From the sequence record LC788708.1: a stretch of DNA of 64,000 nt; one strand, given 5' to 3'. The first letter of the stretch is position 1, and each line of letters opens with the position of its first letter. Origin of the DNA: Escherichia coli phage AZ21. The notes beneath the pieces were generated by a model, which was given only the letters and a program-made list of their open reading frames with translations, was not told the DNA's origin and searched no databases. Positions 3,012-39,028 of the stretch are shown here, piece after piece. Both the position numbers and the translations under genes were made by a program.

Positions 3012-3012
3012 T

Positions 3013-3081: not shown

Positions 3082-3264
3082 ATGCCAGTATCTAAAAATG
3101 TTCGTAAAAATGGTAAGAAAGCTACTCGTAATCTGGGTATCCGTCGTATGGCTGAACGTCAATCAGGTATCCAGAAAATCTTTGATCTGCTAAATCGTGC
3201 TAATCCTAAAATTGATAACAGTAACGATACTGTTCTGCGCACCCTGCTGGCAATTGGTCTGTAA
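3082..3264 (+). CDS. hypothetical basic protein
   Basis: 60 aa ORF behind T5-type promoter and RBS AAAGGAAAACAAATATG. Confidence 0.4.
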   Translation: MPVSKNVRKNGKKATRNLGIRRMAERQSGIQKIFDLLNRANPKIDNSNDTVLRTLLAIGL

Positions 3265-3317
3265 TAGACCAAATTTAAACAAATTCAAATCTCAAACTTC
3301 ATATAAGGAAGCAAATA

Positions 3318-3956: not shown

Positions 3957-4339
3957 TAATTTAAAAGCTAGTAAATCGGTAGACGAAAGCCCAAGCATCT
4001 TACCTCGCAGCAGCGGTTGAAATACGAGGTTAAATAAGACCGCTGACCATACTATAAAGTATAATCTATTGGAGATTATGTTTATTACACCAGCCTCTTA
4101 AGCTGACACGTAAGAACAAAGCGTCGTTGATATTACCGACACAACTTCAAAGATCAACATTTAAGTATGAAAGCTGAAAAGTTTAAAGAACTCAAACTTC
4201 TAAACTTCTAAAGCTAAAAGATGCAAAGTATTCGTTGATGATTCAAACCCTAGATCAAAGGTACATGGCTCATAAGATATGGCCTGTGGCGCCTCTAGGC
4301 TGTTTATCGGTTTACTAGTTTCACAATTTAAAAATGTAT

Positions 4340-4368
4340 TTGCTAATTTACTAAGTTATCTGTATAAT
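4340..4368 (+). promoter_or_regulatory. T5-type early sigma70 promoter
   Basis: TTGCTA-17-TATAAT. Confidence 0.65.
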
Positions 4369-4398
4369 ATATTTTTAAATTGATGAAACGAGGCTATT

Positions 4399-4716
4399 AT
4401 GACTTTTCATATTTTGATTGATGATGTGCGTAATCTTCACGGAATGGACATTATCATTCGAACCCCAGAAGCCGCTGTAGAGTTTCTGAATAAAACTGAT
4501 ACCACAGGCCACTTCGTTTATATGGATAATGACTTGGCTGTAGATGGTATGGAAGGTTATCAAATTCTTCGTTTACTCTTAGAATTTGGGCAGAGACCAA
4601 AGAAAGTGGTACTAGTAACCTCAAACCCAGTAGCTAAGCAAAATATGCGTAATGATTTGCTTGACTTAGGGTATAAAGAAAATCCCAATCGTGTTGAATA
4701 TGATTGGCAGGAGTAA
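4399..4716 (+). CDS. hypothetical protein, CheY-like receiver-domain pattern
   Basis: 105 aa; HILIDDV (acidic pair), FVYMDNDL (Asp), KVVLVTSN (Thr/Ser) spaced like receiver-domain strands; tentative. Confidence 0.4.
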   Translation: MTFHILIDDVRNLHGMDIIIRTPEAAVEFLNKTDTTGHFVYMDNDLAVDGMEGYQILRLLLEFGQRPKKVVLVTSNPVAKQNMRNDLLDLGYKENPNRVEYDWQE

Positions 4717-4721
4717 AAAGA

Positions 4722-5171
4722 ATGAAGGCAGCTTTGCTTTTAGTAGCTGCCCTTACCTTCAGCTTTAGTAGTCAGGCATCGCACGATGCAAAAGAAATAG
4801 ATTGCATTGCTAAAAATATCTATTTCGAGAGTCGCGGTGAGGGCATAAAGGGAATGACGGCGGTTGCACATGTTACTAAAAACCGTGTAAACTCCGGTAA
4901 ATTCCCAGATTCCTACTGTAAAGTAGTATATCAGTCTAACCAGTTCTCTTGGGTATCTAAGAGACCAAAAGTTGATAAAACTGATGAGGCTTGGCAAACC
5001 GCTAAGAATTTAGCTAGAGTGATATACTACGTTGATTTACCACAAGATCCTACGTATGGAGCACTATACTTCCATAGTGGTAAAGATAAACCTTACTGGA
5101 CAAAGAAGTTTAAGAAAACAACTAAGATTAAGGGACATACGTTTTATAAACCTGTTGTCACTAAAACTTAA
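4722..5171 (+). CDS. secreted SleB-like cell-wall hydrolase (Hydrolase_2-like)
   Basis: N-terminal signal peptide MKAALLLVAALTFSFSSQA; IAKNIYFESRGEG...AHVTKNRV...YCKVVYQSNQFSW motif; AGGAG RBS; start moved from TTG 4704 to ATG 4722. Confidence 0.6.
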   Translation: MKAALLLVAALTFSFSSQASHDAKEIDCIAKNIYFESRGEGIKGMTAVAHVTKNRVNSGKFPDSYCKVVYQSNQFSWVSKRPKVDKTDEAWQTAKNLARVIYYVDLPQDPTYGALYFHSGKDKPYWTKKFKKTTKIKGHTFYKPVVTKT

Positions 5172-5179
5172 AAATTTAC

Positions 5180-5208
5180 TTGCTTAGCTACTTAAATTTC
5201 TGTATAAT
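5180..5208 (+). promoter_or_regulatory. T5-type early sigma70 promoter
   Basis: TTGCTT-17-TATAAT, leader TTTCATAAATTAATGAGAGG. Confidence 0.65.
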
Positions 5209-5239
5209 ACTTTCATAAATTAATGAGAGGAAGCGAAAT

Positions 5240-5410
5240 ATGAAATCAGTTGTAATTATTGGTGTTAACACTCGCGGTATTCGTACTACGAAAACTGTTA
5301 AAACTTCTAACGTTGCTGAAATCACTACGAACCCTAAAAAGTTTGATTTCGCCAAAGTCTCAGCAGTTATGACAGAACAATCTTTTAACCAAGCATTGGG
5401 GATGAAATAA
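5240..5410 (+). CDS. small hypothetical protein (56 aa)
   Basis: Short ORF directly behind promoter and GAGAGGAAGCGAAATATG RBS; stop overlaps next start (TAATG). Confidence 0.3.
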   Translation: MKSVVIIGVNTRGIRTTKTVKTSNVAEITTNPKKFDFAKVSAVMTEQSFNQALGMK

Positions 5411-5844
5411 TGGGTGAAAATATTCTAATGACCCTTCGTGGACTGCTTAGTCTAGCACGTACCCACGGTGATAAGGAGAGGGCACTTAATCTTCAGACCA
5501 TGATTGGTGATCTGCAACGTATTGATAAAGACATTGTTACTCGAACCGAGTTCGTAGCCTATCTGAAAGCTCAGATTAAGGCTCTAGAAAATGCAAAACA
5601 ACGCGCTATTAAAGTTGGTACGGAAGTTCCTACTGATGTAGACTATGAGCAACTGCTTTATTCCATGCTGCAAGAGTATCAGCCAAGTCAACTGACTGAA
5701 GTTCAGATTCGTGAGTATTTTGCAGAACTGGTTAAATTAAACCCAGGTATTACCAAAGCTCTATTAATGAAAACTATTAAGGCAGAATTTCCTGGACGTT
5801 ATGACGGTAAAACAACTGCTTTGATTGCTAGTGAATTTTTCTAA
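5410..5844 (+). CDS. hypothetical protein
   Basis: 144 aa ORF translationally coupled to upstream small ORF. Confidence 0.5.
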   Translation: MGENILMTLRGLLSLARTHGDKERALNLQTMIGDLQRIDKDIVTRTEFVAYLKAQIKALENAKQRAIKVGTEVPTDVDYEQLLYSMLQEYQPSQLTEVQIREYFAELVKLNPGITKALLMKTIKAEFPGRYDGKTTALIASEFF

Positions 5845-5852
5845 AAATTCAC

Positions 5853-5881
5853 TTGCTAAATGCTTATAAATTCTATATAAT
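5853..5881 (+). promoter_or_regulatory. T5-type promoter driving tRNA island
   Basis: TTGCTA-17-TATAAT about 80 nt upstream of first tRNA-like element. Confidence 0.6.
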
Positions 5882-5958
5882 ATATTCATAAATTAGATGA
5901 TAATTAGGCATCTAATTTATAAATAGTGGGGTGTGGAAATCACTTATGTAGTAACACT

Positions 5959-6030
5959 GCCGTCCTAGTATAATTGGTATTATCAAGCCGTAACTGGTGG
6001 AAGATGTAGGTTCGAATCCTACGGTCGGTA
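5959..6030 (+). tRNA. tRNA-like element (anticodon arm not resolved)
   Basis: GTAGG-TTCGAAT-CCTAC T-arm and 7-bp acceptor pairing (one mismatch) 70 nt downstream of promoter; no clean anticodon stem found by eye. Confidence 0.35.
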
Positions 6031-6532
6031 AGAACTGGATAACTGATGCTTTTAACGTAAAAGCTTCCGAGGTTAGTTGCGCACTGCCTAAACCACGCGG
6101 TAGTTGGTTCCAGACTAACCAACCAGTCTGCTGAATAGTTTTATTACGATTTAACTATGTCCAGGCTAAAGAAGAACTTTAGAAGGTATTCTAGGATAGT
6201 GAAGTTCTTTCTCCACATCGGAGTAGTTTTTCAAGCTATCCACAAAGTGGGAAATGCTGACATGAGAGATGTCACTAATGGTGCACAATAGCACAGGTAA
6301 TTCGCGATAATTCCTGTTGAGTAGCAGCAAAAGGCGGGAAGTCATGACCCCAAGCCTAACCGAGTCCTCAATATACCGCAGGGCATAACCACTAAGTCAC
6401 CCTGACTTAAACTGGAAAATAATAGACGTTACTGTATTTTGTCTTGAAATACTTAATGAGTGAGACTTATGACTCTCCCGGTATCGTCTGTATTTTTAAG
6501 AGTTTTTACGAGAGTTCTTAAAAATACTTAAA

Positions 6533-6607
6533 CGGGGTGTAGTCTAAGGGAGAGGCAGGAGTCTTCTAAATTCCTTTATGCAGGTTCGAATCCTGTCACC
6601 TCGGCCA
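6533..6607 (+). tRNA. tRNA-Arg (anticodon UCU)
   Basis: Acceptor CGGGGTG/CACCTCG, D-stem GTCT/AGGC, anticodon stem GGAGT/ATTCC with loop CTTCTAA, T-arm GCAGG-TTCGAAT-CCTGT, encoded CCA. Confidence 0.75.
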
Positions 6608-6641
6608 ATTTTATTAACTGTAACTAAAACAAAGGAAACAT

Positions 6642-7589
6642 ATGTTTAATACTAAAAATATGAAAGAATTGACTTCTGAGCAGAAAGTAATTCGTACTAT
6701 TAAACGTTGGGGTATTGGTGCTGTAGTTGGTTTAGCAGGTTTAATCCTAGCTTTTAATTCGTATACCATTGTTTCTGATGGTACGGTTAAAACCCAAACA
6801 TTCCTGGGTAAAGTAGACCCTAATCCAGTATTACCTGGTTTCCATCTTGTAAACCCGTTTGCATCTTTCGATACTTTTAGTACGAAAGATATTTCTATGA
6901 AACTGGATAAACTTCAGGTTCCTAGCCAGGATAAGTTTAAGTCTACAGTTGACATTACCGTTATGTTGCAGTTTGATGGTGCTAAAGCTCCTATTAACCG
7001 TGTTAACGCAGGTACTCAGGATCAAGCTCTGAACAAGTACGTTGAAGAGAAGATGCTGTCTACGATTCGTGAGTTTGGTAAGTCTGTACCAAAAGCACAA
7101 GATCTGTTCGACGCTAAGATTCAGGCTCAACTGCAAACCGCTATTCAGCAAGAAGTAGAAGAGTATGCGCGTCCTTATGGCTACACCGTTAAGCAAGTAT
7201 TCCTTCAGGATATTACTCTGCCACCGGTAATCATGGAACAGGTACAAAACACCAAAGTTCGTGAAGAACAAGTTAACGCTGCAAAAGCTGAACTAGCTCG
7301 TGTTGAACAAGAAGCACAGCAGAAAGTTAAGCAAGCTGAGGCTGATCGTTCTGCTCGTGAAAATATGGCAGTAGCTAACGAACGTGACGCAGATGCTAAA
7401 CTGTATGCGGCTAAGAAAGAAGCTGAAGCTAACACCGCTCTGCAGCGTACCATCACTCCAGAGATGATTCGCTGGAAACAGCTGGAAGTTGATATGAAAC
7501 GCGCTGAAAAATATCAGGGTGGCGTTCCTCAGACTGTTGTAGGTACTGGTTATGATGGCCAGATGATTATGGATATGCGTAATAAGTAA
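6642..7589 (+). CDS. SPFH/band-7 (prohibitin/HflC-like) membrane protein
   Basis: 315 aa; N-terminal TM helix then TQTFLGKV...PGFHLVNPF...TVDITVM SPFH-like core and long Ala/Glu/Lys coiled coil; followed by strong terminator. Confidence 0.65.
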   Translation: MFNTKNMKELTSEQKVIRTIKRWGIGAVVGLAGLILAFNSYTIVSDGTVKTQTFLGKVDPNPVLPGFHLVNPFASFDTFSTKDISMKLDKLQVPSQDKFKSTVDITVMLQFDGAKAPINRVNAGTQDQALNKYVEEKMLSTIREFGKSVPKAQDLFDAKIQAQLQTAIQQEVEEYARPYGYTVKQVFLQDITLPPVIMEQVQNTKVREEQVNAAKAELARVEQEAQQKVKQAEADRSARENMAVANERDADAKLYAAKKEAEANTALQRTITPEMIRWKQLEVDMKRAEKYQGGVPQTVVGTGYDGQMIMDMRNK

Positions 7590-7612
7590 TAGTTACACGT
7601 AATCTTCGAAAC

Positions 7613-7647
7613 AAGCCCGCGTTTCCTCCGAGAGCGCGGGCTTTTCT
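7613..7647 (+). terminator. rho-independent terminator
   Basis: AAGCCCGCG-loop-CGCGGGCTT followed by TTTTCT. Confidence 0.75.
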
Positions 7648-7792
7648 GTATTTAAGGCAAAAGAAAAGCCCATAAGTTATTCAACTAAGGTCTTTAGTAC
7701 TTAATTCTTTAGAATCATATACTATTATTGCAGCAACAACGTGCTACCACTAAATGCCCTACGATTTTCCTCTAAAAAGTTAAAAAATTCGA

Positions 7793-7821
7793 TTGCTTGA
7801 ATGCTAAATTCTCTGTATAAT
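7793..7821 (+). promoter_or_regulatory. T5-type early sigma70 promoter
   Basis: TTGCTT-17-TATAAT, leader TTTATAAATTTGAGAGAGG. Confidence 0.65.
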
Positions 7822-7851
7822 ATATTTATAAATTTGAGAGAGGAATCAAAT

Positions 7852-8148
7852 ATGAAACGCATTGTACTTGCATTGACTCTAGTATCTACTTCTGTATTTG
7901 CTGCTCCACAACAGGAACTTTGTCAAGTTCAAGTTTGTAATAAGCTAGAACGATTTACTTTGGATATTTGGTCACACATTAAAGATAATATGGGTGAGCA
8001 ATGTTTTGATATTGTTCTGCCAAAAGAACAAGCTGTTCCTGGTGCTGTTCTCAGCTCAGAATCACGTTGGTGGCAAGGTTCTTCTATCAATCCAACTAAG
8101 AAGTCAGTGACACGTATCAAACAAGTGTATCAGTGCAGTGTTCAGTAA
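7852..8148 (+). CDS. small secreted protein
   Basis: Signal peptide MKRIVLALTLVSTSVFAAP; RBS GAGAGAGGAATCAAATATG; upstream in-frame extension overlaps promoter so start set at 7852. Confidence 0.5.
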   Translation: MKRIVLALTLVSTSVFAAPQQELCQVQVCNKLERFTLDIWSHIKDNMGEQCFDIVLPKEQAVPGAVLSSESRWWQGSSINPTKKSVTRIKQVYQCSVQ

Positions 8149-10482: not shown

Positions 10483-10518
10483 CTGATACAGCACTGAGCA
10501 AGTTCTTTAAAATTTGAC

Positions 10519-10547
10519 TTGCTCAGTGCCTTAAAACTTGATATAAT
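10519..10547 (+). promoter_or_regulatory. promoter upstream of tRNA-Tyr
   Basis: TTGCTC-17-TATAAT. Confidence 0.55.
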
Positions 10548-28984: not shown

Positions 28985-29177
28985 TTCCTATGCAGTGAAT
29001 AATTCTAATATACAGCTAAAACGCTCTCAAACGCATTCTAACGCGTTTAATTTTGGTGGGGATACTAAAACAAGGGCAAAATTGGAGGAGGCTTGAAAAT
29101 TAGTTAGCTCGCTAATGATCACACACGGCGACACGTAACACCCTAACCATTAGCAGGCTAACCATCGCGGGCGTGGT

Positions 29178-29200
29178 CAAATGAGAATGATTCTCATTTG
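29178..29200. repeat. perfect inverted repeat CAAATGAGAAT-G-ATTCTCATTTG
   Basis: 11-bp arms around a single central base. Confidence 0.8.
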
Positions 29201-29350
29201 TGGATTGGGGGCGCTTCCTGATAGTTGCGCCCCGTGATTATTATAGTAGGGGGCAACCGTTACGCTTTGCCCACTCCCGCCACTCATCTTGGTGCCTAGA
29301 CTTGCGACGGCGTACTAAAAACCGCTTGTACCAGTGATTAAACCATCGTT

Positions 29351-29554
29351 TCATAAATCCTCCTCCGGTAGTCGATGCGTGATCTTTTCCTCCTCCCCAT
29401 AGGAATCCACCAAATACTGATAATAACCATCGTGATCATAAATCACTTTATCATATTCCCCACGCTCGACCGCTTGCCGATTTTCCAACGTATCAGGCAC
29501 AAAGAAAGTATCAACGGTAACAGTAGTTTTAGTTACAACAATTTTATCACTCAT
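29351..29554 (-). CDS. hypothetical small acidic protein
   Basis: 67 aa; last gene of tightly packed minus-strand operon; start overlaps upstream tiny ORF. Confidence 0.45.
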   Translation of the reverse strand: MSDKIVVTKTTVTVDTFFVPDTLENRQAVERGEYDKVIYDHDGYYQYLVDSYGEEEKITHRLPEEDL

Positions 29555-29680
29555 AATGCCATCGCCCCTAGAATGAGAATGATTATCAATATCATTGTGA
29601 AGCCATTACCAAATCGTAAACGCTGGGAATGTTTCCCAGCGGTATTATTAGACTTATGGCTTTGTGTTTTTCGCCACCAG

Positions 29681-29881
29681 CTATTCACGGTAGACGCTCC
29701 ATCCGTCTAGCTTCCATTCTTCCCCCTTGCGAATATTGAAAAACCAATCATTAAAATTGTAACCATCTTCTGACATGATCACGCCGTTTTCTTTCATGTA
29801 CAAAAATTCATCACTAGTAAAATATTGATTACTAACTTTAAAACCTTGTTTCATTTTTTCTAGTGCTTCATCTTTAGTCAT
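29681..29881 (-). CDS. hypothetical small acidic protein
   Basis: 66 aa; ATGA-type overlap with upstream gene. Confidence 0.45.
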   Translation of the reverse strand: MTKDEALEKMKQGFKVSNQYFTSDEFLYMKENGVIMSEDGYNFNDWFFNIRKGEEWKLDGWSVYRE

Positions 29882-30222
29882 TGCGCCACCTTTCGAAACG
29901 CTGTTTCAATACTATCCGCAGTGGATTGAATATATGCGCCTTTGAGTATCAGCCGCTCGGTGCATATCTTGCGAAAAATATTAATAAAATCGTCCTCATT
30001 TTCTGCGATTAATGCCTCACCCATAACCTGAACGTCGCAAGATGCAAAGGTCAAAAATTGAAACGCTAGTTCACGGGCAACGACCGCATTGATTTTATAA
30101 TGCGCCTTGCCTTCATAGATATTAATAACGCCCTTATAAGCTGGCGAAAGCTGATTTAAGTAGTTTGCTAATAATGCCGGACGGCAATTAGCAACAAAAC
30201 GATTGCCCTCATAAATAACCAT
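29878..30222 (-). CDS. hypothetical protein
   Basis: 114 aa, minus-strand operon member. Confidence 0.5.
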   Translation of the reverse strand: MVIYEGNRFVANCRPALLANYLNQLSPAYKGVINIYEGKAHYKINAVVARELAFQFLTFASCDVQVMGEALIAENEDDFINIFRKICTERLILKGAYIQSTADSIETAFRKVAQ

Positions 30223-30349
30223 TTGATAGTCTCCCGATTAGATAGCCAGATAATAACATAAAGATCCCCAATAAAAGAGGATCATTCTTAAATAAGGTGG
30301 CGGTAAAACCGCCAACCATTGCAAGGAGAATAACAATAATGCTTTTCAT
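30209..30349 (-). CDS. small membrane protein (46 aa)
   Basis: MKSIIVILLAMVGGFTATLF hydrophobic ORF; ATG overlaps stop of upstream gene (ATGA) and its stop overlaps next start. Confidence 0.3.
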   Translation of the reverse strand: MKSIIVILLAMVGGFTATLFKNDPLLLGIFMLLSGYLIGRLSNGYL

Positions 30350-30558
30350 AGTACCCCACGAAACGCAGCGTAAAAGGTGGCAAAGTGTTTAACTGTTTCA
30401 GCAATCACGTTGCCGCGCTTATCAAATTTCTTTTCTGTAACACGAAAGGCATTTTTATTACGTGCTACATATTCGATTTTACAATCTTCCCGCTCGAACG
30501 TGTTAACATCCACCAGCTTAAAGCCTTTCGAACGTGCAAGAGAAACGTTGCGGATCAT
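30346..30558 (-). CDS. hypothetical basic protein
   Basis: 70 aa ORF in minus operon. Confidence 0.45.
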   Translation of the reverse strand: MIRNVSLARSKGFKLVDVNTFEREDCKIEYVARNKNAFRVTEKKFDKRGNVIAETVKHFATFYAAFRGVL

Positions 30559-30560
30559 TT

Positions 30561-30743
30561 TTATTCCCCTTTACTAGTCATGCAGCCCAGCAGATAAGAA
30601 AATACAGCGATGCCAGCACCAATAGTAACCATTGGTTTTATATTTACTAAACCGCAATAGGAATCCTGAATACCATAAGCGGTGGCGAAAAGAGTCAAAA
30701 TAGCGCCCAAGATACCCGCTAAAATAGCTCGAAAAATAACCAT
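30561..30743 (-). CDS. small membrane protein
   Basis: 60 aa with two hydrophobic helices; preceded by GGGGCG-loop-CGCCCC hairpin. Confidence 0.45.
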   Translation of the reverse strand: MVIFRAILAGILGAILTLFATAYGIQDSYCGLVNIKPMVTIGAGIAVFSYLLGCMTSKGE

Positions 30744-30792
30744 TTGTAATACTCCTCTAGTTAGTGGGGCGAAAGTAACGCCCCGTTATTAA

Positions 30793-31023
30793 TTACATTA
30801 AAATAATTTTTGCCGCTTGTTTTTTGGTACAGTGTTCCGCTTTCAGGGTGTCCAGCAAAAAGCCCGCCGTTTGCTGATCGATTTTATCGGCATTATATAG
30901 TTCTTGGATGGTGTTATAAGTTTTAGCAATGCCGTATTCTTGTACCATTTCTTGAATAATCCAGCGATTTGATACCCAGCCTTTACCAGTGAAAAGAGCG
31001 TCAGAAGAAGAGTAAGCAACCAT
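30793..31023 (-). CDS. hypothetical protein
   Basis: 76 aa from ATG with RBS GGAGGCTTAAAATG (minus strand); longer track ORF lacks RBS. Confidence 0.45.
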   Translation of the reverse strand: MVAYSSSDALFTGKGWVSNRWIIQEMVQEYGIAKTYNTIQELYNADKIDQQTAGFLLDTLKAEHCTKKQAAKIILM

Positions 31024-31086
31024 TTTAAGCCTCCAAATTTTTGGGAAAATTTTCAACCGTCCTCAAACGGTGTAAAGGCATTATAA

Positions 31087-31115
31087 CAAAAAAGGCCGCC
31101 ATAAAAGGCGACCTT
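31087..31115 (-). terminator. rho-independent terminator (minus strand)
   Basis: AGGTCGCC-loop-GGCGGCCT hairpin followed by TTTTTT on minus strand, right after the stop of 31130-31624. Confidence 0.5.
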
Positions 31116-31129
31116 TACAAAACTTTACA

Positions 31130-31624
31130 TTAAACTACTTGTAAGGATTCAATATTGAAACATCGTTTCAGTTCGTCATGCAAAACGGCATATTCATCCC
31201 ATCGGGTACTATCAGGAATATAAACAAGCTGTTTTAATCGGTTTGCATATATTACCGCTTTGTTATCAATTATCTCGACGCCACCATATTTAATAATTAA
31301 TTTCATGACGGAATTAATAGGATCGCCGCCGTTTACATATGCGCCGGATTTACTTAATTGATAATGATAAAGGCTTGCATATACGTTTTCATTTTCATAC
31401 CATTCGCCAGTCTCTTCGTCTTCATAGCCATCGCTACCAAAACGAGAAGCATTATCAACAGCCATTTCATGAGCAAAAGCGTCCAGATCCGTACCAGCAG
31501 GAACAAAATATTCCTCGGTATTCCCTTCCCCGCAATAGCCAGTATGACAATCGACTAAAATGATCATATCATGTTTAGCCTTGCTCACTTCCCCTAGCGA
31601 GAAGCCGTATTTTTCTTCTAACAT
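31130..31624 (-). CDS. hypothetical acidic protein
   Basis: 164 aa from ATG with RBS GGAGAC; acidic run DGYEDEETGEWYENENVY. Confidence 0.5.
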   Translation of the reverse strand: MLEEKYGFSLGEVSKAKHDMIILVDCHTGYCGEGNTEEYFVPAGTDLDAFAHEMAVDNASRFGSDGYEDEETGEWYENENVYASLYHYQLSKSGAYVNGGDPINSVMKLIIKYGGVEIIDNKAVIYANRLKQLVYIPDSTRWDEYAVLHDELKRCFNIESLQVV

Positions 31625-31688
31625 AATTAGTCTCCTATTAATTAACAAGGAAATAGTAAAGCGGGGAAATAATCCCCGCTAGATATTA

Positions 31689-31922
31689 TTACTCGTTTTC
31701 GGTGTTAGTGGTAAAAGTAGAGATATCGATACCTTTTACCATTTCATCGATCATCTCAGCGATGTTAAAACTTTGCACCATTTCTAACATTGCCGCTTCC
31801 ATAGCCGCCCCTGCTACCGCTTTCGCTTTCTGATTAGTCGGGGCGTACTGGTCAACCGCTACACTCAGCAGGTTAGCGATCACTACACGACCAATCGGCG
31901 TATCAATATAGCCTTTGATCAT
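31689..31922 (-). CDS. hypothetical protein, possibly C-terminal part of a frameshifted gene
   Basis: 77 aa ORF overlapping end of 31903-32694 by 20 nt; reachable by +1 shift at an A7 run. Confidence 0.4.
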   Translation of the reverse strand: MIKGYIDTPIGRVVIANLLSVAVDQYAPTNQKAKAVAGAAMEAAMLEMVQSFNIAEMIDEMVKGIDISTFTTNTENE

Positions 31923-32694
31923 AAACGGTGCTTTTTTTAGCCGCTACTTTCGTGATTTGAGTTAGTGCAATTTTACCAGCTTCCAGTTTTGCAGCGTTTA
32001 CAACAGCGGATTTATTAGCGGCAACGATATTAGCGATCTTGGTCATGGTATTTTTTCCTTTGTTTTCAGTAGTTTGAGTATTAACGCTTTGAGTGTTAGA
32101 GCTTACAACCTGTTTTTCAATATTGTCAACTGGTTTTAGTGTAAATCCAGCATTTGCAACGTTTGATTCATTCCCATACTCTAAATAATCACTAGGGATC
32201 AACATGTTGCCACTAGCGCGTTCAAAACATAACACGCCAGTTGTAGAAATTACATTACTATCAGCACTTTTGTAATTAGCTGATAGTTCACGCCAAATGC
32301 TAGTTAATAACGATCCGACACTATCAGTCCTGATATTACTTACTTTTGTTGCTGTTACTTGCTCTTTTTCTTGCACGTTATATAATCGCGCAATGTAACC
32401 ACTATTAGATTCACTATAACCAACAATGATAAAATCAATATCTCTTCCACGTTGATTGCGGAAAATGTGATAATCACGGTTGAAAATTACTAGCGCCCTT
32501 TTCTGGTCTAGTAATTGTGTGAAATCTTCAACTGAATAATGAGTACCCTCATCGTCTAAAATTCTATCATGAATCTTTTCGATAATAGTAGCGGTATGCT
32601 GTACGCTTGCCGCGCTACTACCCTCTAACAGATTGCGCAAACTGCCTTTAATAATAGTGGCGTTTGCTGGTACTGCAATTCTTACAGTAGACAT
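31903..32694 (-). CDS. hypothetical protein (first gene of minus-strand operon)
   Basis: 263 aa ORF, Ser/Thr/Asn-rich middle, Ala/Lys-rich C-terminus; ends just after A7 homopolymer. Confidence 0.5.
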   Translation of the reverse strand: MSTVRIAVPANATIIKGSLRNLLEGSSAASVQHTATIIEKIHDRILDDEGTHYSVEDFTQLLDQKRALVIFNRDYHIFRNQRGRDIDFIIVGYSESNSGYIARLYNVQEKEQVTATKVSNIRTDSVGSLLTSIWRELSANYKSADSNVISTTGVLCFERASGNMLIPSDYLEYGNESNVANAGFTLKPVDNIEKQVVSSNTQSVNTQTTENKGKNTMTKIANIVAANKSAVVNAAKLEAGKIALTQITKVAAKKSTVYDQRLY

Positions 32695-32960
32695 TTTATT
32701 TTGTCTCCCTCGTTAATCGGTGAGTGAATGATAAGGGTAATTTTCTAGCATAGGCAAATATTATTTTACTTTTTTATTTTCCTTGCCTAGCGTCTAATTT
32801 TATGCTAACCGCGCAGCGGTGCAATAAAGAGCAAACCACGGCGAAGCCACCAGCCCGACGCATTGAGGCTTTACTTTAATATTACCTTACAGCGTTTAGC
32901 TCGTTAGAATGCGTTTTGGGCCACTTAAAATTGATTGCAGTTGTTAACACTACCTTTCTA

Positions 32961-33397: not shown

Positions 33398-33799
33398 AGG
33401 CTAGAATGCGCCTAAAACGCTCCAGAACGCGATGAAGTTTTTAGCCACCCCATCATAAGGGGATAGGCCGTTTATCGCTGCCACGAGCTTTTTAGATTTT
33501 GTCAAGTAGGGGAAAGCAAATATAAATGAAAAAATTACTTGCCTATTTGCTTTATTTTGTGGTATTCGCGCCCGTTTCTTTTAATTTTAGGCCGTCGCCG
33601 GACGTGGTGCGGTGAATTTTGTCTTTACGTTTCTTTACAAAAATAAGGTTGCGCCATTTTCGGGAATCCCCTATTATTTATCACGTAGGGCGGCAATGAC
33701 GAACTACACGGCGGGAAGTTTACCGCCACGCTCTTTAAAAATTGGGTACATCTTAAAGCCTATCGGCGGTAAACTTATTTATTATAAGGAATCGACGAT

Positions 33800-34012
33800 A
33801 TGAAACAAACTTTATTGATCACTGGCAAGCCTATTAAGGCACTAGATAGCAAAACAAAAAATTTGTTGACAGTAGCGCAAAGATCGGTAAAATACCGATT
33901 CACGCAGTACAAGAAAGACCGCCAGCAAGGTTTAGAAATGATCTGGCGAAACATTATGATTGACTTGAAAGAAAATCATAAAAAACTGCAAAAAAATTAT
34001 TTGACAACCTAG
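33800..34012 (+). CDS. hypothetical ORF (doubtful)
   Basis: 70 aa ORF but contains internal TTGACA-17-TAAAAT promoter-like sites; may be non-coding. Confidence 0.2.
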   Translation: MKQTLLITGKPIKALDSKTKNLLTVAQRSVKYRFTQYKKDRQQGLEMIWRNIMIDLKENHKKLQKNYLTT

Positions 34013-34233
34013 CCGATAGGTTTTAAGATGTACCCAGTTCGATAAGAGCGATAACTTGATAAAATTTGACGGTCGGTGCTTACCATAATGCGCCCCGCCC
34101 CCTAACGGGATATAGCGGCCTACGTGGAGTTCTTTAAATTGATTATAGCGGCGAGAGGATTGTTACTTATTACCTGCTAGTATTTTCTAGTAGGTAATAA
34201 GTAACAATCCATCAAATAACTGGAGTTTATATT

Positions 34234-34485
34234 ATGCAAAACGTTATTACCGCGCCTAAAATTGGTCAATCCGTCTTTATTCCTTTCGTTACTAAAACGG
34301 ATGAATTAACCGGAAAGGCCGAACGTATTAAAGGTGCGGCGCTTATGCCGTTCGATACAATCGACGCGGTATATGCTGAAAATGAACGCAGTAACAACGG
34401 CAAGCCCGTTTTTAGCGTTCGCGTTAAATCCGGCGATGTTGTAAAGGTTGTTCAACGCAACGAAAAATGGGAAGCTGTGTTGTAA
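34234..34485 (+). CDS. pre-early hypothetical protein
   Basis: 83 aa, RBS AACTGGAGTTTATATTATG; followed by perfect 9-bp hairpin. Confidence 0.5.
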   Translation: MQNVITAPKIGQSVFIPFVTKTDELTGKAERIKGAALMPFDTIDAVYAENERSNNGKPVFSVRVKSGDVVKVVQRNEKWEAVL

Positions 34486-34583
34486 TTTAGTGTTAACTTT
34501 ATATCCCCCTTATTTCAGGGGGATATAACGATTAACATTAAGTTAATCTAATCCCTTAAATTAAACTAATAGGAGTTTTTACC

Positions 34584-34991
34584 ATGACTAACGCAAAAAC
34601 CGCAAAATTCGCATGGAATGAAGAAAACACTCAGAAAGCTGTTACCATGTACCAGCAGTTAATCAACGAAAACGGTTTAGATTTTGCAAATAGCGACGGC
34701 CTGAAAGAGATTGCAAAAGCAGTAGGCGCGGCCTCCCCCGTATCCGTTCGGTCAAAATTGACCAGTGCAAAAGCCTATCAAAAAAGCGATAAGCCGCGTA
34801 AAGTTGGCGGCGGTAGCTCTGTGCGTAAAGCTCACTATGTGCGAGTAATTGCAAAACACGCTATCGATTCCGGTATTATCAAAGACGCCGATGATCTGGC
34901 AAGCCTTGAAAGTGCTAAACTGGAAACGCTGGACGCGGTGGCGCAACTGTTAGGCGTTGCCGATGAAGTAAAACAAGCCGTAGGTGAATAA
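34584..34991 (+). CDS. pre-early hypothetical protein
   Basis: 135 aa, RBS AGGAG; followed by GCCCCCT-loop-AGGGGGC hairpin. Confidence 0.5.
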   Translation: MTNAKTAKFAWNEENTQKAVTMYQQLINENGLDFANSDGLKEIAKAVGAASPVSVRSKLTSAKAYQKSDKPRKVGGGSSVRKAHYVRVIAKHAIDSGIIKDADDLASLESAKLETLDAVAQLLGVADEVKQAVGE

Positions 34992-35081
34992 TAGTTATAC
35001 CTTGCCCCCTTCTAGTGAGGGGGCACTAATATAACTGTTTAGCGATAGTTATTTTCTTCCCTTAAATCAGGAGTTTTAAAA

Positions 35082-35279
35082 ATGGTTTTCTTCCCTACTG
35101 AATCTTTGATTCTAGGCTTGTTTATTATGGCGGCCTCATTATTGTTCGCTTATTTTCAGAATGATTTAGATTCGTATTATTTTAAACGTAAATCTAAATT
35201 AGCAAAACGTTTGGGCTTGCTTTGTTTTATCGCTGCCGTTGCCTGTGGTGTTAGTTCGAGTCTAGTACCATTAAATTAA
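35082..35279 (+). CDS. small membrane protein
   Basis: 65 aa with two hydrophobic helices; RBS AGGAG. Confidence 0.4.
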   Translation: MVFFPTESLILGLFIMAASLLFAYFQNDLDSYYFKRKSKLAKRLGLLCFIAAVACGVSSSLVPLN

Positions 35280-35366
35280 TGTTGCAAATTATAACGCCTA
35301 TTATTCGAGGCGTTATATTTGGCAATATTGCCATTATTAACCTAATCCCTTTAATGGAGTTTTATT

Positions 35367-37037
35367 ATGATTATTTCCGCAGAAAAACAAACCGTTATCC
35401 TGAAAATGGCCGCTGATTTCAATTTCTACGGTAAACGCCTGCGCGCCACTAAACTGGAGGTCTGCGACGATATTTCAAAAGCGGTCTACGATACAACGAA
35501 ACACTCCACCGCTATCTGCGACTGGCTGGAAGCAAATAAACCAGCGAAACCAAAAGCGGCAAAAGTAGCAAAAGCCATTAAAAACGGTGAGCGCCCCGAA
35601 GCGGCTGGGATTGTTTCTAGTACCGTGGAGCAGTGGGAAGTAAAACAAGGTAAACGCTTTATTATTACATCGATTCAGAATAATACTTTCCCGCATAAAA
35701 ACTTTTTAGCCTCACTGGAGCAATTTGCTAAATATATCGGGGCTGATTTGCTCGTTTCTAAGTATATTTATAATAAAAACGGTTTTCAAAATGGGGAAGG
35801 TGCTGACGGAATCAAATATGATTCCGCGTTTGATAAATATATTTGCAGCAAAAACGTGTTTTTGAATAACCGCCGCTTTGCTTTCATGGCTGAAATTAAT
35901 GTTTTGCCTACCGCAGATTATCCGCTTTCTGGATTCGCAGAAACTGCAACGGCTTTAAATATTGAAGGTCTGGCAATTGGTCACGCTAAAATTACCGCTG
36001 AAAGCGTACCAGCTTTAAAAGGTGAAGTAGTGCGCCGTATGTACTCAACCGGAACGGCAACGCTCAAAAACTACATTCAGCAGAAAGCAGGACAAAAGGC
36101 CGAGGCGCTGCATAACTTCGGTGCGCTTATTGTTGAGTTCGACGAGGACGGGGAATTTTTTGTACGCCAGCTTGAAACGATGGACGAAAGCGGGGTATTT
36201 TATGATCTGAATGTGTGTGCTACTCCTGCCGGATGCTATGAAACATCGGGGCATGTTTTAGGCTTGCAGTATGGCGATATTCACGCCGAAAAATTAGATG
36301 AGGAGTGCGCCGCCGCGTCATGGGGGCATGGTGATACTTATGGGCTAGTAGATATTCTTAAACCAAAATATCAGTTTGTGCATGACGTGCATGATTTTAC
36401 ATCGCGCAATCATCATAACCGCGCATCGGGTGTATTCCTAGCAAAACAGTACGCCGCCGGACGTGATAAGGTTATTGATGATCTTATCGATACGGGGCGC
36501 GTGCTGGAATCAATGGAGCGTGATTTTTCTCAAACAATCATTGTTGAATCGAATCACGATTTGGCGTTATCCCGTTGGCTTGATGATCGTAATGCTAACA
36601 TCAAAGACGATCCAGCAAACGCAGAACTGTATCACCGCCTGAATGCTGCAATTTACGAGGCAATCGGTGAACATGACGAAACGTTCAACGTGCTAGATTA
36701 TGCGCTGCGCAAGGTTGCAGGTTGTGAGTTTAACGCCATTTTCCTGACCACTGACCAATCTTTCAAGATTGCAGGCATTGAATGCGGCGTACACGGTCAC
36801 AACGGCATTAATGGCAGTCGTGGCAATCCCAAACAATTTAAGAAATTGGGCAAGTTAAACACTGGTCATACTCATACGGCAAGCATTTACGGCGGGGTAT
36901 ATACCGCTGGCGTAGCTGGTAGTCTGGATATGGGTTACAACGTTGGCGCGTCAAGCTGGACGCAAACTCATTTAATTACCTATGCAAACGGTCAGCGCAC
37001 TTTGATTGACTTTAAGAACGGTAAATTTTTTGCGTAA
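35367..37037 (+). CDS. A1: A1-like pre-early protein, calcineurin-like metallophosphatase (Mre11/SbcD-type nuclease fold)
   Basis: 556 aa (size of the T5 A1 product as I recall it); GDIH, ESNHD, HGHNG, GHTHT metallophosphatase motifs in order; sits with dmp-like gene. Confidence 0.7.
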   Translation: MIISAEKQTVILKMAADFNFYGKRLRATKLEVCDDISKAVYDTTKHSTAICDWLEANKPAKPKAAKVAKAIKNGERPEAAGIVSSTVEQWEVKQGKRFIITSIQNNTFPHKNFLASLEQFAKYIGADLLVSKYIYNKNGFQNGEGADGIKYDSAFDKYICSKNVFLNNRRFAFMAEINVLPTADYPLSGFAETATALNIEGLAIGHAKITAESVPALKGEVVRRMYSTGTATLKNYIQQKAGQKAEALHNFGALIVEFDEDGEFFVRQLETMDESGVFYDLNVCATPAGCYETSGHVLGLQYGDIHAEKLDEECAAASWGHGDTYGLVDILKPKYQFVHDVHDFTSRNHHNRASGVFLAKQYAAGRDKVIDDLIDTGRVLESMERDFSQTIIVESNHDLALSRWLDDRNANIKDDPANAELYHRLNAAIYEAIGEHDETFNVLDYALRKVAGCEFNAIFLTTDQSFKIAGIECGVHGHNGINGSRGNPKQFKKLGKLNTGHTHTASIYGGVYTAGVAGSLDMGYNVGASSWTQTHLITYANGQRTLIDFKNGKFFA

Positions 37038-37093
37038 TTAAATTATTTCCCTAGCGGCTTGAAATACAGCCGCTATTACAGGAGCTAAATTAA

Positions 37094-37372
37094 ATGGCTA
37101 TTAAAATTAATCTTCCCAATATTAAAAACACCGCTGATATATGGTCGATTGATACTATATTGCGTGGCACTGTATACCGTAATTTAAAAGATAATAATTG
37201 TTATATTTATCAAAATGAATTAAACGGCCATATTTACATAATCGAGTCCGATGGTTTTTGTTCTTTTGAGACTGATTATGAAGCGCAAGATCATATACAG
37301 GCAAATGATATTCCTGACGTATGGAAAGAAACAAACCTTGCTTTTGTTGTAAGTCTTGAAGCTAACAAATAA
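37094..37372 (+). CDS. pre-early hypothetical protein
   Basis: 92 aa ORF downstream of A1-like gene, RBS AGGAGCTAAATTAAATG. Confidence 0.45.
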   Translation: MAIKINLPNIKNTADIWSIDTILRGTVYRNLKDNNCYIYQNELNGHIYIIESDGFCSFETDYEAQDHIQANDIPDVWKETNLAFVVSLEANK

Positions 37373-37410
37373 ATTAAATATCTTATTAAATTAATTGGAG
37401 TTTTACAAAT

Positions 37411-37803
37411 ATGAAAAAGCAAAATATTCCATTCGATCGCGCTCAGTCTTCTATTGTTCTGGTTTATTCTAATGGTGAGCGTTACCACGTCGAGGCGGGG
37501 CACGTTATTGATGAATTATTAGATTTCAATGACGCTTTACAGGTTACTACCTTTGCCTACACGCAAGGCCGCGCAAGTAGTTACATTAAGGCCGCAGGCG
37601 TTTATGTTGACACGGTGAAACAAGAAACGATTATCATCGACGCAGTAAAATCCGGTCTAGCCTTTGCAGTTGTCGCGCCTTGCCCCTCTTGTCTTGATGA
37701 TCAGCTAACGAGTGCGAAAGTATACACCTGCGCGGGCATTCGTTCCCATGTATCAGGAGAGGATATTAGTTTTATCGCTGATGCGTTGGCTTATGGTCTT
37801 TAA
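37411..37803 (+). CDS. pre-early hypothetical protein (possible A2 equivalent)
   Basis: 130 aa ORF downstream of A1-like gene; assignment by position only. Confidence 0.4.
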   Translation: MKKQNIPFDRAQSSIVLVYSNGERYHVEAGHVIDELLDFNDALQVTTFAYTQGRASSYIKAAGVYVDTVKQETIIIDAVKSGLAFAVVAPCPSCLDDQLTSAKVYTCAGIRSHVSGEDISFIADALAYGL

Positions 37804-37883
37804 TAGTTGATTTATTATTGCCCGCTGATAGATAGCGGGCAATGCTGGATAAACTACATCCCTTTAATGGAGAACGTAACAAA

Positions 37884-38618
37884 ATGAATCAAGTTAAAAC
37901 GAATATTTCCCGTAACTTCCCGCATATTTCCCGCGTCATGATCTGGGATCTTGATGGCACTATCGTTAATTCATTCCATCGTGTAGCGCCTTGCTTTGAT
38001 AGTGAGGGTAATCTAGATTTAAATAAGTATAAGAATGAGGCTTGCAAACATGATTTAATAATGCAGGATACTTTATTGCCTTTGGTGGAATATATGCGCC
38101 AATGCATGAATGACGCAAATACTTTAAACATTATTTGTACCGCTCGATTAATGAGCAAATCGGATTATTATTATTTGCGCAAACAAGGCTTGCGAGGGCG
38201 TGGGGATAGCAATATCCGCGTGTTTTCCCGCGACACGCTGCATAAATATTTTGAAGCTGATAAGGTTAGCGAGATATACCACAGTAAAGACGCAGTTTAT
38301 AAATCGTATTACTTTGAATTATTTAAACAGCTATATCCGAACGCTGATTTCACAATGATTGATGATCATAAAGGTGTATTATCAGCGGCGGCGTCATACG
38401 GATTTAAAACGCTAGACGCGCAAGCCGTTAACGATATTCTATCAATCGGCGTGGCATTGATAGGCGGAACCTTTATTGATGAATCTCTCGATGATGATAA
38501 TGATTATCAGTTCCTAGCCGATCGATTGAAATTATGTTGGGAAAGTATGACCGAAGAAGAACGCGCAGAATATAGTTGCAGCCCGCAACAATATATTGAG
38601 AAATTAAAAGTTGCGTAA
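37884..38618 (+). CDS. dmp: HAD-family 5'-deoxyribonucleotidase (dmp-like)
   Basis: VMIWDLDGTIVNS (HAD motif I DxDGT); RBS GGAGAACGTAACAAAATG; pre-early context. Confidence 0.65.
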   Translation: MNQVKTNISRNFPHISRVMIWDLDGTIVNSFHRVAPCFDSEGNLDLNKYKNEACKHDLIMQDTLLPLVEYMRQCMNDANTLNIICTARLMSKSDYYYLRKQGLRGRGDSNIRVFSRDTLHKYFEADKVSEIYHSKDAVYKSYYFELFKQLYPNADFTMIDDHKGVLSAAASYGFKTLDAQAVNDILSIGVALIGGTFIDESLDDDNDYQFLADRLKLCWESMTEEERAEYSCSPQQYIEKLKVA

Positions 38619-38782
38619 TAATTAAAGTTGAAATAGTTTCATCCTGCAATTAAAATGGTTGCGGGATGAAACAATTACCCTGCTAATAGTAACGGGGGTG
38701 GCGGTTAGCAGACTAAGTATTCTCCCCCAACCCACTGGACACACCTCCATGTGTAATCCTATGAAATTTGGCAAAAGTCAAA

Positions 38783-39028
38783 TTAGCGCATAGAAGGGTC
38801 ATCAAACCTGTGCTCTGGTCTGAACTCACGGAATCTCTTCCACGACGCCCGAGATCCATCAGACCACTCCCGCTCAAACTCCGCACGTTTCTCGTCAAAC
38901 TTCCGCTCCCTTTCCGCAATCTCTCGCGTCACCCCCGCGATATATTCCCGATGCTTGTTAATTGCCGCAGTTGTCCCGAAAACTCCCGCGAGTATCCCGA
39001 TAATAAAAGCAATTACAATACTAAACAT
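38783..39028 (-). CDS. small membrane protein
   Basis: 81 aa, N-terminal TM helix then charged tail. Confidence 0.4.
   Translation of the reverse strand: MFSIVIAFIIGILAGVFGTTAAINKHREYIAGVTREIAERERKFDEKRAEFEREWSDGSRASWKRFREFRPEHRFDDPSMR

What the first reader, a model, noticed from the sequence alone, without database searches (positions are those of the whole stretch)
34501..38680. Perfect GC-rich hairpins without U-tracts after each pre-early gene
Perfect stems of 7-10 bp with no following T-run occur after successive pre-early genes: ATATCCCCC/GGGGGATAT (34501), GCCCCCT/AGGGGGC (35004), ATAACGCC/GGCGTTAT (35290), TAGCGGC/GCCGCTA (37048), TTGCCCGCT/AGCGGGCAA (37822) and GTTTCATCC/GGGATGAAAC (38650). 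They look like processing or stability elements, or pause sites, rather than intrinsic terminators.
Basis: seen in the sequence. Interest (0 to 1): 0.4.

Follow-up and report, generated by a model that had tools for sequence, protein, structure and literature searches.

The report
Conserved RNA hairpins between T5 pre-early genes
A T5-like phage carries strong, evolutionarily maintained RNA hairpins without U-tracts after six of the seven genes of its first-expressed operon; they most likely protect or define mRNA 3' ends rather than stop transcription, which is a familiar kind of element.

Summary
The window is a T5-like phage, 100% identical here to E. coli phage AZ23. The region is the leftward pre-early (first-step-transfer) operon: T5.007, A2, T5.005, A1, T5.003, T5.002 and dmp. 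All six hairpins exist, though four coordinates are a few bases off. The perfect stems are 8-12 bp. The sixth is 17 bp with one G·U. Most sit inside longer 17-23 bp imperfect helices. They follow six of seven genes; none follows T5.003. They are far beyond chance, and relatives keep the pairing through compensatory changes or swap in unrelated stems at the same position. G·U pairs greatly outnumber A·C, so the structure acts in the sense RNA. Four lack any T-tract, H4 is intermediate and H3 is borderline. Canonical terminators follow early and late genes in the same window. My best reading (about 0.5) is 3'-end protection or processing on a polycistronic mRNA. RNase III cleavage is plausible for the long bipartite hairpins, including a newly noticed leader hairpin. 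Weak or factor-dependent attenuation is the main rival, because Pectobacterium relatives carry T-tracts at the same junctions. Three hairpins are already annotated in a T5 GenBank record, as palindromes A and B and a putative terminator. This is a new member of a known kind, of modest interest.

The parts
33866..33893 (+). Promoter-like site TTGACA-16-TAAAAT, corresponding to T5 pre-early promoter P-H22
   Evidence: Scan match of 11/12. The position corresponds to the P-H22 feature of AY543070 and AY692264. P-H22 was validated by primer extension in PMC7472727.
34001..34029 (+). Promoter-like site TTGACA-17-TAAGAT, corresponding to T5 promoter P-D/E20
   Evidence: Scan match of 10/12. It maps to the annotated P-D/E20 of AY692264.
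34157..34210 (+). Leader hairpin L0: 24 bp with one G·U and loop TATTTT, 23 nt upstream of the first gene's ATG
   Evidence: Relatives keep it as a bipartite helix with compensatory changes. It was not part of the original finding.
34234..34485 (+). T5.007 homologue (83 aa)
34486..34542 (+). H1: 23-bp bipartite hairpin; the perfect 12-bp inner stem is 34499-34528
   Evidence: dG -28.8 kcal/mol for the whole spacer, z = -4.7. One pair occurs as CG, AU, GC and UA among relatives; 5 pairs show changes on both sides, with 0/500 shuffles as good.
34584..34991 (+). A2 (135 aa)
34992..35037 (+). H2: 17-bp hairpin with an internal loop; the perfect 8-bp stem is 35003-35025
   Evidence: z = -3.5. In T5 and many relatives it is replaced by the unrelated stem TAGTGGGGA/TCCCCACTA, with a TA to CG compensatory change. 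It equals 'palindrome B' of AY587007.
35082..35279 (+). T5.005 homologue (65 aa, two transmembrane segments)
35280..35327 (+). H3: 18-bp hairpin; the perfect 10-bp stem is 35290-35317 and is followed by TTTGG
   Evidence: z = -4.5. 9 of 18 pairs show changes on both sides, 98.8% of cells are paired, 0/500 shuffles as good. The T-tract score of 2.5 is borderline.
35367..37037 (+). A1 (556 aa)
37052..37075 (+). H4: perfect 8-bp hairpin with an 8-nt loop
   Evidence: z = -3.1. Relatives carry variant stems (GGCGGC, TCGGCGG) or unrelated ones (ATAAGCGGGG/CCCCGCTTAT, ATAAGCTGGAA/TTCCAGCTTAT) at the same place.
37094..37372 (+). T5.003 homologue (92 aa); the only gene not followed by a hairpin
37411..37803 (+). 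T5.002 homologue (130 aa)
37804..37856 (+). H5: 22-bp tripartite hairpin; the perfect 10-bp stem is 37817-37843
   Evidence: z = -4.6. GC/AT covariation occurs in the inner stem, and two other unrelated inner stems are found in relatives. It equals 'palindrome A' of AY587007.
37884..38618 (+). dmp (deoxynucleoside-5'-monophosphatase, 244 aa), the last gene of the operon
38636..38672 (+). H6: 17-bp hairpin with one G·U, ending 69 nt before the position that corresponds to the T5 left genome end (38741)
   Evidence: A second, unrelated stem family in relatives has 7 pairs with changes on both sides. It equals the 'putative rho-independent terminator' 69-105 of AY587007.
34551..34560 (+). ATCCCTTAAA box upstream of the A2 Shine-Dalgarno sequence
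35057..35066 (+). TTCCCTTAAA box (1 mismatch) upstream of the T5.005 Shine-Dalgarno sequence
35345..35354 (+). ATCCCTTTAA box directly upstream of the A1 Shine-Dalgarno sequence
37858..37867 (+). ATCCCTTTAA box directly upstream of the dmp Shine-Dalgarno sequence

Best explanation
The six elements are RNA stem-loops in the sense transcript of the leftward pre-early operon of a T5-like phage. Host RNA polymerase starts at the P-H22/P-D/E20 promoter cluster and reads through the whole operon. No consensus promoter lies in the spacers.

Each stable inner stem begins 8-18 nt after a stop codon, roughly at the downstream edge expected for a terminating ribosome. I infer that the hairpins act after transcription as barriers to 3'-to-5' exonucleases, and as boundaries of processed mRNA segments. 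Each upstream cistron, or the T5.003+T5.002 pair, would then persist as a hairpin-capped message.

For the last gene, transcription on injected first-step-transfer DNA must run off the DNA end about 70 nt past H6. There the hairpin can only serve 3'-end protection.

What is shown: the hairpins exist, they are non-random, pairing is conserved, the signal is strand-specific at the RNA level, and T-tracts are absent. What is inferred: the exonuclease-barrier and processing role, and which nuclease makes the primary cuts.
For: - Identity and operon layout.
- Promoter-like sites occur only upstream of the operon and none in the spacers. P-H22 is experimentally validated (PMC7472727).
- Non-randomness: P = 2e-8 for perfect stems placed after stops; z = -3.1 to -6.4. 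Five of six best hairpins are <= -19.8 kcal/mol, against 4.6% of coding windows reaching <= -19.
- Structure rather than sequence is conserved. One H1 pair has all four Watson-Crick pair types. H3 has 9 covarying pairs and H6b has 7. Unrelated stems occupy the same junctions in different phages.
- RNA-level and sense-strand signal: 168 G·U cells against 12 A·C cells. The sense fold is more stable than the antisense fold in 125 of 149 distinct hairpins.
- No T-tracts, whereas early and late genes of the same window have classical terminators.
- Inner stems start 8-18 nt after the stop codon in relatives.
- H6 lies 69 nt from the position of the T5 genome end, where no downstream gene exists.
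Against: - No transcript 3'-end or half-life data for T5 pre-early mRNA could be found.
- In Pectobacterium phages My1 and DU_PP_V, hairpins at equivalent junctions do carry T-tracts and look like canonical terminators. A transcriptional role at these positions therefore has precedent in the family.
- H3 has a borderline T-tract.
- Lower stems begin at the stop codon, so terminating ribosomes would melt them. This is neutral for an exonuclease barrier but shows the full helices are not always formed.
- Sequences in the comparisons are related, so cell counts overstate the number of independent events.
Confidence: 0.5

Rival explanations
1. The long bipartite hairpins (L0, H1, H5, and perhaps H2, H3 and H6) are RNase III processing sites. 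They would cut the polycistronic pre-early transcript into gene-sized mRNAs, as in the T7 early operon, leaving a stabilising half-hairpin at each 3' end. This is a specific version of the best explanation, not exclusive of it.
For: - The helices are 22-24 bp with small internal loops or bulges (L0, H1, H5) or 17-18 bp (H2, H3, H6).
- In relatives the leader hairpin is a lower stem, an asymmetric internal loop and an upper stem.
- The layout matches what I recall of T7: one promoter cluster, a site before the first gene, then sites between genes (own knowledge: Dunn and Studier).
- Median total helix length is 18-22 bp at four of the six junctions across relatives.
Against: - H4 is only 8 bp. 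At the A2 and A1 junctions the median helix in relatives is 8-9 bp, too short for RNase III. T5 itself has a 9-10 bp stem after A2.
- The outer stems are mostly invariant, so covariation there is weak.
- No RNase III data exist for T5.
Confidence: 0.2
2. The hairpins are weak or factor-dependent terminators or pause sites (attenuators). They would set a descending gradient of expression along the operon. Alternatively they become active once RNA polymerase is modified by pre-early proteins, contributing to the A1-dependent shut-off of pre-early transcription.
For: - Equivalent junctions in Pectobacterium phages My1 and DU_PP_V carry hairpins with T-tracts and no room for a promoter before the next gene.
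- H3 has TTTGG, with a T-tract score of 2.5.
- H6 is annotated as a putative rho-independent terminator in AY587007.
- gpA1 and an 11-kDa pre-early protein co-purify with RNA polymerase, and A1 is implicated in regulating pre-early transcription (PMC7472727).
- NusA/NusG-dependent termination at imperfect U-tracts is known in bacteria (own knowledge).
Against: - Four of the six hairpins have essentially no T's after the stem (scores 0.39-0.85), against 2.3-3.8 for canonical sites in the same genome. The consensus scan calls none of them.
- H6 has no downstream gene to attenuate, and on first-step-transfer DNA it sits 69 nt from the DNA end.
- Essential genes (A1, and dmp far downstream) lie beyond several hairpins, so termination must be inefficient.
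Confidence: 0.2
3. The hairpins mainly serve translation. They would isolate each ribosome-binding site from upstream RNA folding, or prevent re-initiation or scanning by terminating ribosomes, so that each cistron is translated independently.
For: - Every hairpin lies between a stop codon and the next Shine-Dalgarno sequence, and is followed by a conserved box and GGAG.
- The one junction without a hairpin has the shortest spacer, 38 nt.
- In some relatives a hairpin at the A1 junction sequesters the Shine-Dalgarno sequence of an inserted ORF.
Against: - H6 follows the last gene and has no downstream cistron.
- The stems do not include the next Shine-Dalgarno sequence in the window phage.
- Stems of -20 kcal/mol or more are much stronger than insulation would need.
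Confidence: 0.07
4. The inverted repeats act in DNA, as a protein operator or a cruciform for injection, replication or packaging, and the RNA fold is incidental.
For: - They lie in the terminal repeat, which is rich in functional DNA repeats (bioRxiv 10.1101/866236).
- H6 is close to the genome end.
Against: - The six stems share no common sequence, so a single DNA-binding protein is unlikely.
- G·U pairs, which would be C·A mismatches on the other strand and in DNA, are tolerated and even fixed, while A·C is rare: 168 against 12 cells. The sense fold is better in 125 of 149 hairpins.
- Their position tracks stop codons.
Confidence: 0.03

Closest known systems
RNase III processing sites of the phage T7 early operon (R0.3, R0.5, R1, R1.1, R1.3)
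   Same: Both are early operons transcribed by host polymerase from a promoter cluster at the genome end. Both have a hairpin before the first gene and hairpins between cistrons. The helices are about 20 bp with internal loops and no U-tract, and the 3' half-hairpin would stabilise the upstream mRNA.
   Different: There is no sequence relationship. Two of the six junctions carry stems of only 8-10 bp, too short for RNase III. Cleavage has never been tested for T5.
Intercistronic 3' stabiliser stem-loops (for example REP elements in malEFG, or the puf and pap operon hairpins)
   Same: These are stable stem-loops just downstream of a cistron, without terminator function, that block PNPase and RNase II and produce differential segment stability.
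   Different: The hairpins are not a repeated sequence family: each junction has its own stem, and phages swap stems. They have no Rfam match. Function is untested.
Intrinsic (Rho-independent) terminators
   Same: Both have a G+C-rich stem-loop shortly after a stop codon. H6 is annotated as a putative terminator in AY587007, and Pectobacterium relatives have genuine-looking terminators at the same junctions.
   Different: H1, H2, H5 and H6 have no U-tract, H4 is intermediate and H3 is borderline. Loops are 6-9 nt (3 nt in the full H6 fold), and several helices are far longer than typical terminators.
PeSL cassettes of T4-type phages (promoter-early plus stem-loop)
   Same: Both are conserved intergenic modules containing a stem-loop, flanking small variable early genes. 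Gene content between A1 and T5.002 varies between phages while the flanking spacers are conserved.
   Different: No sigma-70 promoter-like site accompanies the stem-loops here.

Membership tests
Intrinsic (Rho-independent) terminator | G+C-rich stem-loop of about 5-14 bp | tested here: met
   The perfect stems are 8-12 bp with 4-6 G-C pairs.
Intrinsic (Rho-independent) terminator | U-tract immediately 3' of the stem (at least 5 T in 8 nt) | tested here: not met
   None of the six is called by the terminator scan. T-tract scores are 0.39-0.85 for H1, H2, H5 and H6, 1.7 for H4 and 2.5 for H3 (borderline). Canonical-looking sites in the same window score 2.3-3.8.
Intrinsic (Rho-independent) terminator | RNA polymerase releases the transcript 7-9 nt after the stem | not testable with these tools
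   This needs in vitro transcription or Term-seq. No such data were found in the literature searches.
RNase III site of the T7 early type | Irregular double-stranded helix of about two turns (around 20 bp or more), often with an internal loop | tested here: inconclusive
   L0 is 24 bp, H1 23 bp and H5 22 bp. H2, H3 and H6 are 17-18 bp. H4 is 8 bp. In relatives the median is 8-9 bp at the A2 and A1 junctions and 18-22 bp at the other four.
RNase III site of the T7 early type | Lies between cistrons of a polycistronic transcript made from upstream promoters | tested here: met
   Promoter-like sites occur only at 33866-33893 and 34001-34029, with none in the spacers. Gene order is shown.
RNase III site of the T7 early type | Cleaved by host RNase III | not testable with these tools
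   No report was found.
3' stabiliser stem-loop (exonuclease barrier) | Thermodynamically stable stem-loop in the sense RNA downstream of a cistron, maintained by selection | tested here: met
   z = -3.1 to -6.4. Covariation is shown. The sense strand is favoured.
3' stabiliser stem-loop (exonuclease barrier) | Upstream mRNA segment is stabilised and 3' ends map to the base of the stem | not testable with these tools
   This requires half-life and 3'-end measurements.
REP/BIME repeated extragenic palindromes | Shared consensus sequence repeated at many loci | tested here: not met
   The six stems differ in sequence, and there is no Rfam match in 33500-39000.
PeSL (promoter-early stem-loop) cassette | Stem-loop followed by a sigma-70 early promoter in the same spacer | tested here: not met
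   No promoter-like match lies in any of the spacers between 34486 and 37883.

The most novel reading that the evidence does not exclude
The U-less hairpins, the leader hairpin and the AAUCCCUU(U/A)AAU box before every Shine-Dalgarno sequence would together form a dedicated control module of the pre-early operon. A phage factor would read this module: for example RNA polymerase modified by gpA1 and the 11-kDa pre-early protein, or a pre-early RNA-binding or RNA-cleaving protein. That factor would switch the hairpins into terminators, or trigger mRNA cleavage, giving the long-unexplained A1-dependent shut-off of pre-early expression.
Probability: 0.1. Interest if true: 0.65.

Novelty: new member of a known kind. 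Interest (0 to 1): 0.33.

Why it matters
How T5 times and then shuts off its pre-early genes is still unexplained. This analysis shows that the A1/A2/dmp operon carries a conserved set of RNA structures: a leader hairpin, six post-cistron hairpins and a shared box before each ribosome-binding site. Selection maintains them at the RNA level.

That gives concrete, mutable targets for testing whether mRNA processing, stability or conditional termination shapes pre-early expression. It also cautions annotators against labelling such hairpins as terminators. In kind, however, intercistronic stabiliser or processing hairpins in phage early operons are well known.

Tried and rejected
- Rfam scan of 33500-39000 at a permissive E-value gave only chance-level microRNA and S15-leader hits, none at the six hairpins. 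The microRNA hits pointed to the leader palindrome.
- Internal promoters in the spacers: none by consensus scan. The 'putative promoter' 3353-3416 of AY692264, between T5.005 and A1, has no match of 9/12 or better in the window.
- A shared motif TTGAAATA (in the H4 loop and just upstream of H6) occurs at chance frequency, 7 observed against 6.7 expected. Dropped.
- A -10 kcal/mol cut-off for 'hairpin present' is not discriminating: 51% of coding windows pass it. The '149 of 156 relatives have a hairpin' figure is therefore not used as evidence. I rely on the -19 kcal/mol cut-off, perfect-stem placement and covariation instead.
- The d'Aubenton-Carafa d-score was computed from a formula recalled from memory with modern energies. 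It also scored most canonical sites negative, so only its T-tract term is used.
- Terminators for the opposite strand: there are no T-runs on the - strand after any stem (read from the sequence).
- Literature: Davison 2015 (PMC4743489) is not held. Davison's 2020 preprint discusses only the injection-stop repeats. No T5 transcript-end or RNase III data were found.
- AZ23 annotation for the whole window: the window differs from LC788707 by a 1.8-kb indel before position 7806, so only CDS coordinates from 7852 onward were used.

Full report
**Identity of the region.** Window 34200-38700 is 100% identical to Escherichia coli phage AZ23 (LC788707.1), a Tequintavirus. It is 88% identical to phage T5 positions 42-4514 on the opposite strand.

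It is the leftward pre-early operon of the terminal repeat, which is the first-step-transfer DNA. The genes are the T5.007 homologue (34234-34485), A2 (34584-34991), the T5.005 homologue (35082-35279), A1 (35367-37037), the T5.003 homologue (37094-37372), the T5.002 homologue (37411-37803) and dmp (37884-38618).

Two strong promoter-like sites lie upstream, at 33866-33893 and 34001-34029. They correspond to the annotated T5 promoters P-H22 and P-D/E20. P-H22 has been validated by primer extension (PMC7472727). No promoter-like site lies in any spacer between the genes. The T5 left genome end maps to window 38741.

**The observation.** All six inverted repeats exist. The sixth quoted pair is not an exact reverse complement.

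The maximal perfect stems are 12, 8, 10, 8 and 10 bp: 34499-34528, 35003-35025, 35290-35317, 37052-37075 and 37817-37843. The sixth (38636-38672) is a 17-bp stem with one G·U. Four of them continue into longer imperfect helices that start 0-3 nt after the stop codon: H1 34486-34542 (23 bp), H2 34992-35037 (17 bp), H3 35280-35327 (18 bp) and H5 37804-37856 (22 bp).

Hairpins follow six of the seven genes. The 38-nt spacer after the T5.003 homologue has none (z = -0.9). The same is true in every relative, whatever gene occupies that slot.

**Chance.**
- The window holds 27 perfect hairpins of at least 8 bp with at least 4 G-C pairs, against 1.9 in block shuffles. Five of them start within 25 nt after the seven stop codons, where 0.074 are expected (P = 2e-8).
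- Spacer folding z-scores are -3.1 to -6.4.
- A control showed that a -10 kcal/mol cut-off is useless, because 51% of 75-nt coding windows pass it. Only 4.6% reach -19, whereas five of the six hairpins are at -19.8 or below.
- H4 alone is unremarkable by energy. Its support comes from its position and from comparison with relatives.

**Conservation.** I fetched 57 loci encoding A1 homologues and extracted the sequence after each homologous stop codon.

Pairing is maintained by compensatory change. In H1 one pair occurs as CG (6), AU (5), GC (5) and UA (3), and five pairs change on both sides, with 0/500 shuffles as good. H3 has nine covarying pairs and 98.8% of cells paired. The alternative H6 family has seven.

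Different phages also carry unrelated stems at the same junction. After A2 the stem is TGCCCCCT/AGGGGGCA or TAGTGGGGA/TCCCCACTA. After A1 there are four families, after T5.002 three, and after dmp at least two.

G·U pairs are common and often fixed, whereas A·C is rare: 168 against 12 cells. The sense strand folds better than its complement in 125 of 149 distinct hairpins. These counts include related sequences and so overstate independent events, but the direction is clear. Selection acts on the structure of the + strand RNA, not on a DNA palindrome.

**Terminators or not.** The consensus scan calls none of the six. T-tract scores are 0.39-0.85 for H1, H2, H5 and H6, 1.7 for H4 and 2.5 for H3, which is followed by TTTGG. 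Six canonical-looking A-stem-T hairpins after early and late genes of the same window score 2.3-3.8. The phage therefore uses classical terminators elsewhere but not here, with H3 borderline.

In the Pectobacterium T5-like phages My1 and DU_PP_V (about 65% A1 identity), the hairpins after A2 and after the gene preceding dmp are followed by T-tracts, as is the one after T5.005 in DU_PP_V. There is no room for a promoter before the next gene. The junctions are thus conserved sites of hairpin formation across the group. In some lineages they look like attenuating terminators.

**Mechanism.** The reading that fits all six sites is a 3'-end protecting or segment-defining stem-loop on a polycistronic mRNA.
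- The stable inner stems begin 8-18 nt after the stop codon, roughly where the downstream edge of a terminating ribosome is expected.
- The stems are far stronger than needed for incidental folding.
- The last and best-supported hairpin, H6, has no downstream gene. On injected DNA it lies 69 nt from the physical end, where polymerase must run off. Termination or attenuation makes little sense there, but protection from exonucleases does.

I put this at about 0.5.

A more specific version is RNase III processing, by analogy with the T7 early operon (my own knowledge of Dunn and Studier's work). It is attractive for the 22-24 bp bipartite helices. It is also attractive for a leader hairpin I noticed at 34157-34210, which in relatives has a lower stem, an asymmetric internal loop and an upper stem. 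It cannot apply to the 8-10 bp stems at the A1 and A2 junctions.

Weak or factor-dependent attenuation is the main rival. It is supported by the Pectobacterium T-tracts, by H3, and by reports that gpA1 co-purifies with RNA polymerase (PMC7472727). Translational insulation and DNA-level roles are less likely. H6 has no downstream cistron, the stems share no common sequence, and the G·U asymmetry argues against a DNA role.

**Prior knowledge.** The Hangzhou T5 record AY587007 already annotates three of these elements without function: 'putative rho-independent terminator' 69-105 (H6), 'palindrome A' 899-925 (H5) and 'palindrome B' 3697-3718 (H2). AY543070 and AY692264 annotate none. I found no paper that maps pre-early transcript ends, tests RNase III, or describes the pattern as a whole. 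Davison's 2015 review could not be read.

**Verdict.** They are not canonical terminators, with H3 borderline. The most likely function is mRNA 3'-end protection or processing. RNase III and attenuation remain open and are directly testable. This is a new, well-supported instance of a familiar kind of element in a classic phage, and it is of moderate interest.

Noticed in passing
window 34157-34210 (+): There is a 24-bp hairpin (one G·U, loop TATTTT) in the operon leader, 23 nt before the first ATG. In relatives it is a conserved bipartite helix (8-bp lower stem, asymmetric internal loop, 11-12 bp upper stem) with compensatory changes. Its form resembles a T7-type RNase III site. No T5 record that I inspected annotates it.
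   Followed up: partly
window 34551-34560, 35057-35066, 35345-35354, 37858-37867 (+); degenerate copies before the other three genes: The box A-T-C-C-C-T-T-(T/A)-A-A sits 0-10 nt upstream of the GGAG Shine-Dalgarno sequence. All three exact matches in the 64-kb window lie in this operon on the sense strand. It is conserved in relatives, including Pectobacterium phages, where it directly follows the terminator-like hairpins. Its function is unknown, and it does not resemble a promoter.
   Followed up: partly
window 38628-38656 (+): A promoter-like site TTGAAA-17-TAAAAT (10/12) overlaps H6, with the -10 element in the hairpin loop. The loop sequence AATTAAAATGG is invariant in that hairpin family. 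In the right terminal repeat or in concatemers it would fire into the adjacent unique region.
   Followed up: no
window 38680-38711 (+): A second hairpin (CUGCUAAU...AUUAGCAG type) lies between H6 and the position corresponding to the T5 left genome end (38741).
   Followed up: no
window 29000-32700 (- strand): The divergent (rightward in T5) pre-early operon also has hairpins after most genes, of mixed kind. One is canonical with a T-tract (31091-31116, annotated as a terminator in T5). Two have partial T-tracts (31660-31680, 29621-29641). Two have none (30298-30314, and GGGGCGTTACTTTCGCCCC after the gene at 30793-31023).
   Followed up: partly
L016 and L022, about 30-70 nt after the A1 stop codon: In some relatives a 169-aa ORF is inserted after A1. 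Its Shine-Dalgarno sequence is buried in a 14-bp hairpin (TCCTCCAATTAAT...ATTAATTGGAGGA), which suggests translational control of the inserted gene.
   Followed up: no
window 1-7855: The window is not identical to AZ23 throughout. It differs by a 1.8-kb indel before position 7806, so it comes from a near-identical but distinct genome or assembly.
   Followed up: partly
window 33800-34012 (+): The annotated 70-aa CDS (T5.008 homologue) is overlapped by the P-H22 promoter-like site and ends just before P-D/E20. Either the CDS call or its mode of expression is doubtful.
   Followed up: no
window 10491-10529 (+): A perfect 13-bp hairpin without a T-tract follows a small early gene in the tRNA region, so U-less hairpins are not confined to the pre-early operon.
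   Followed up: no
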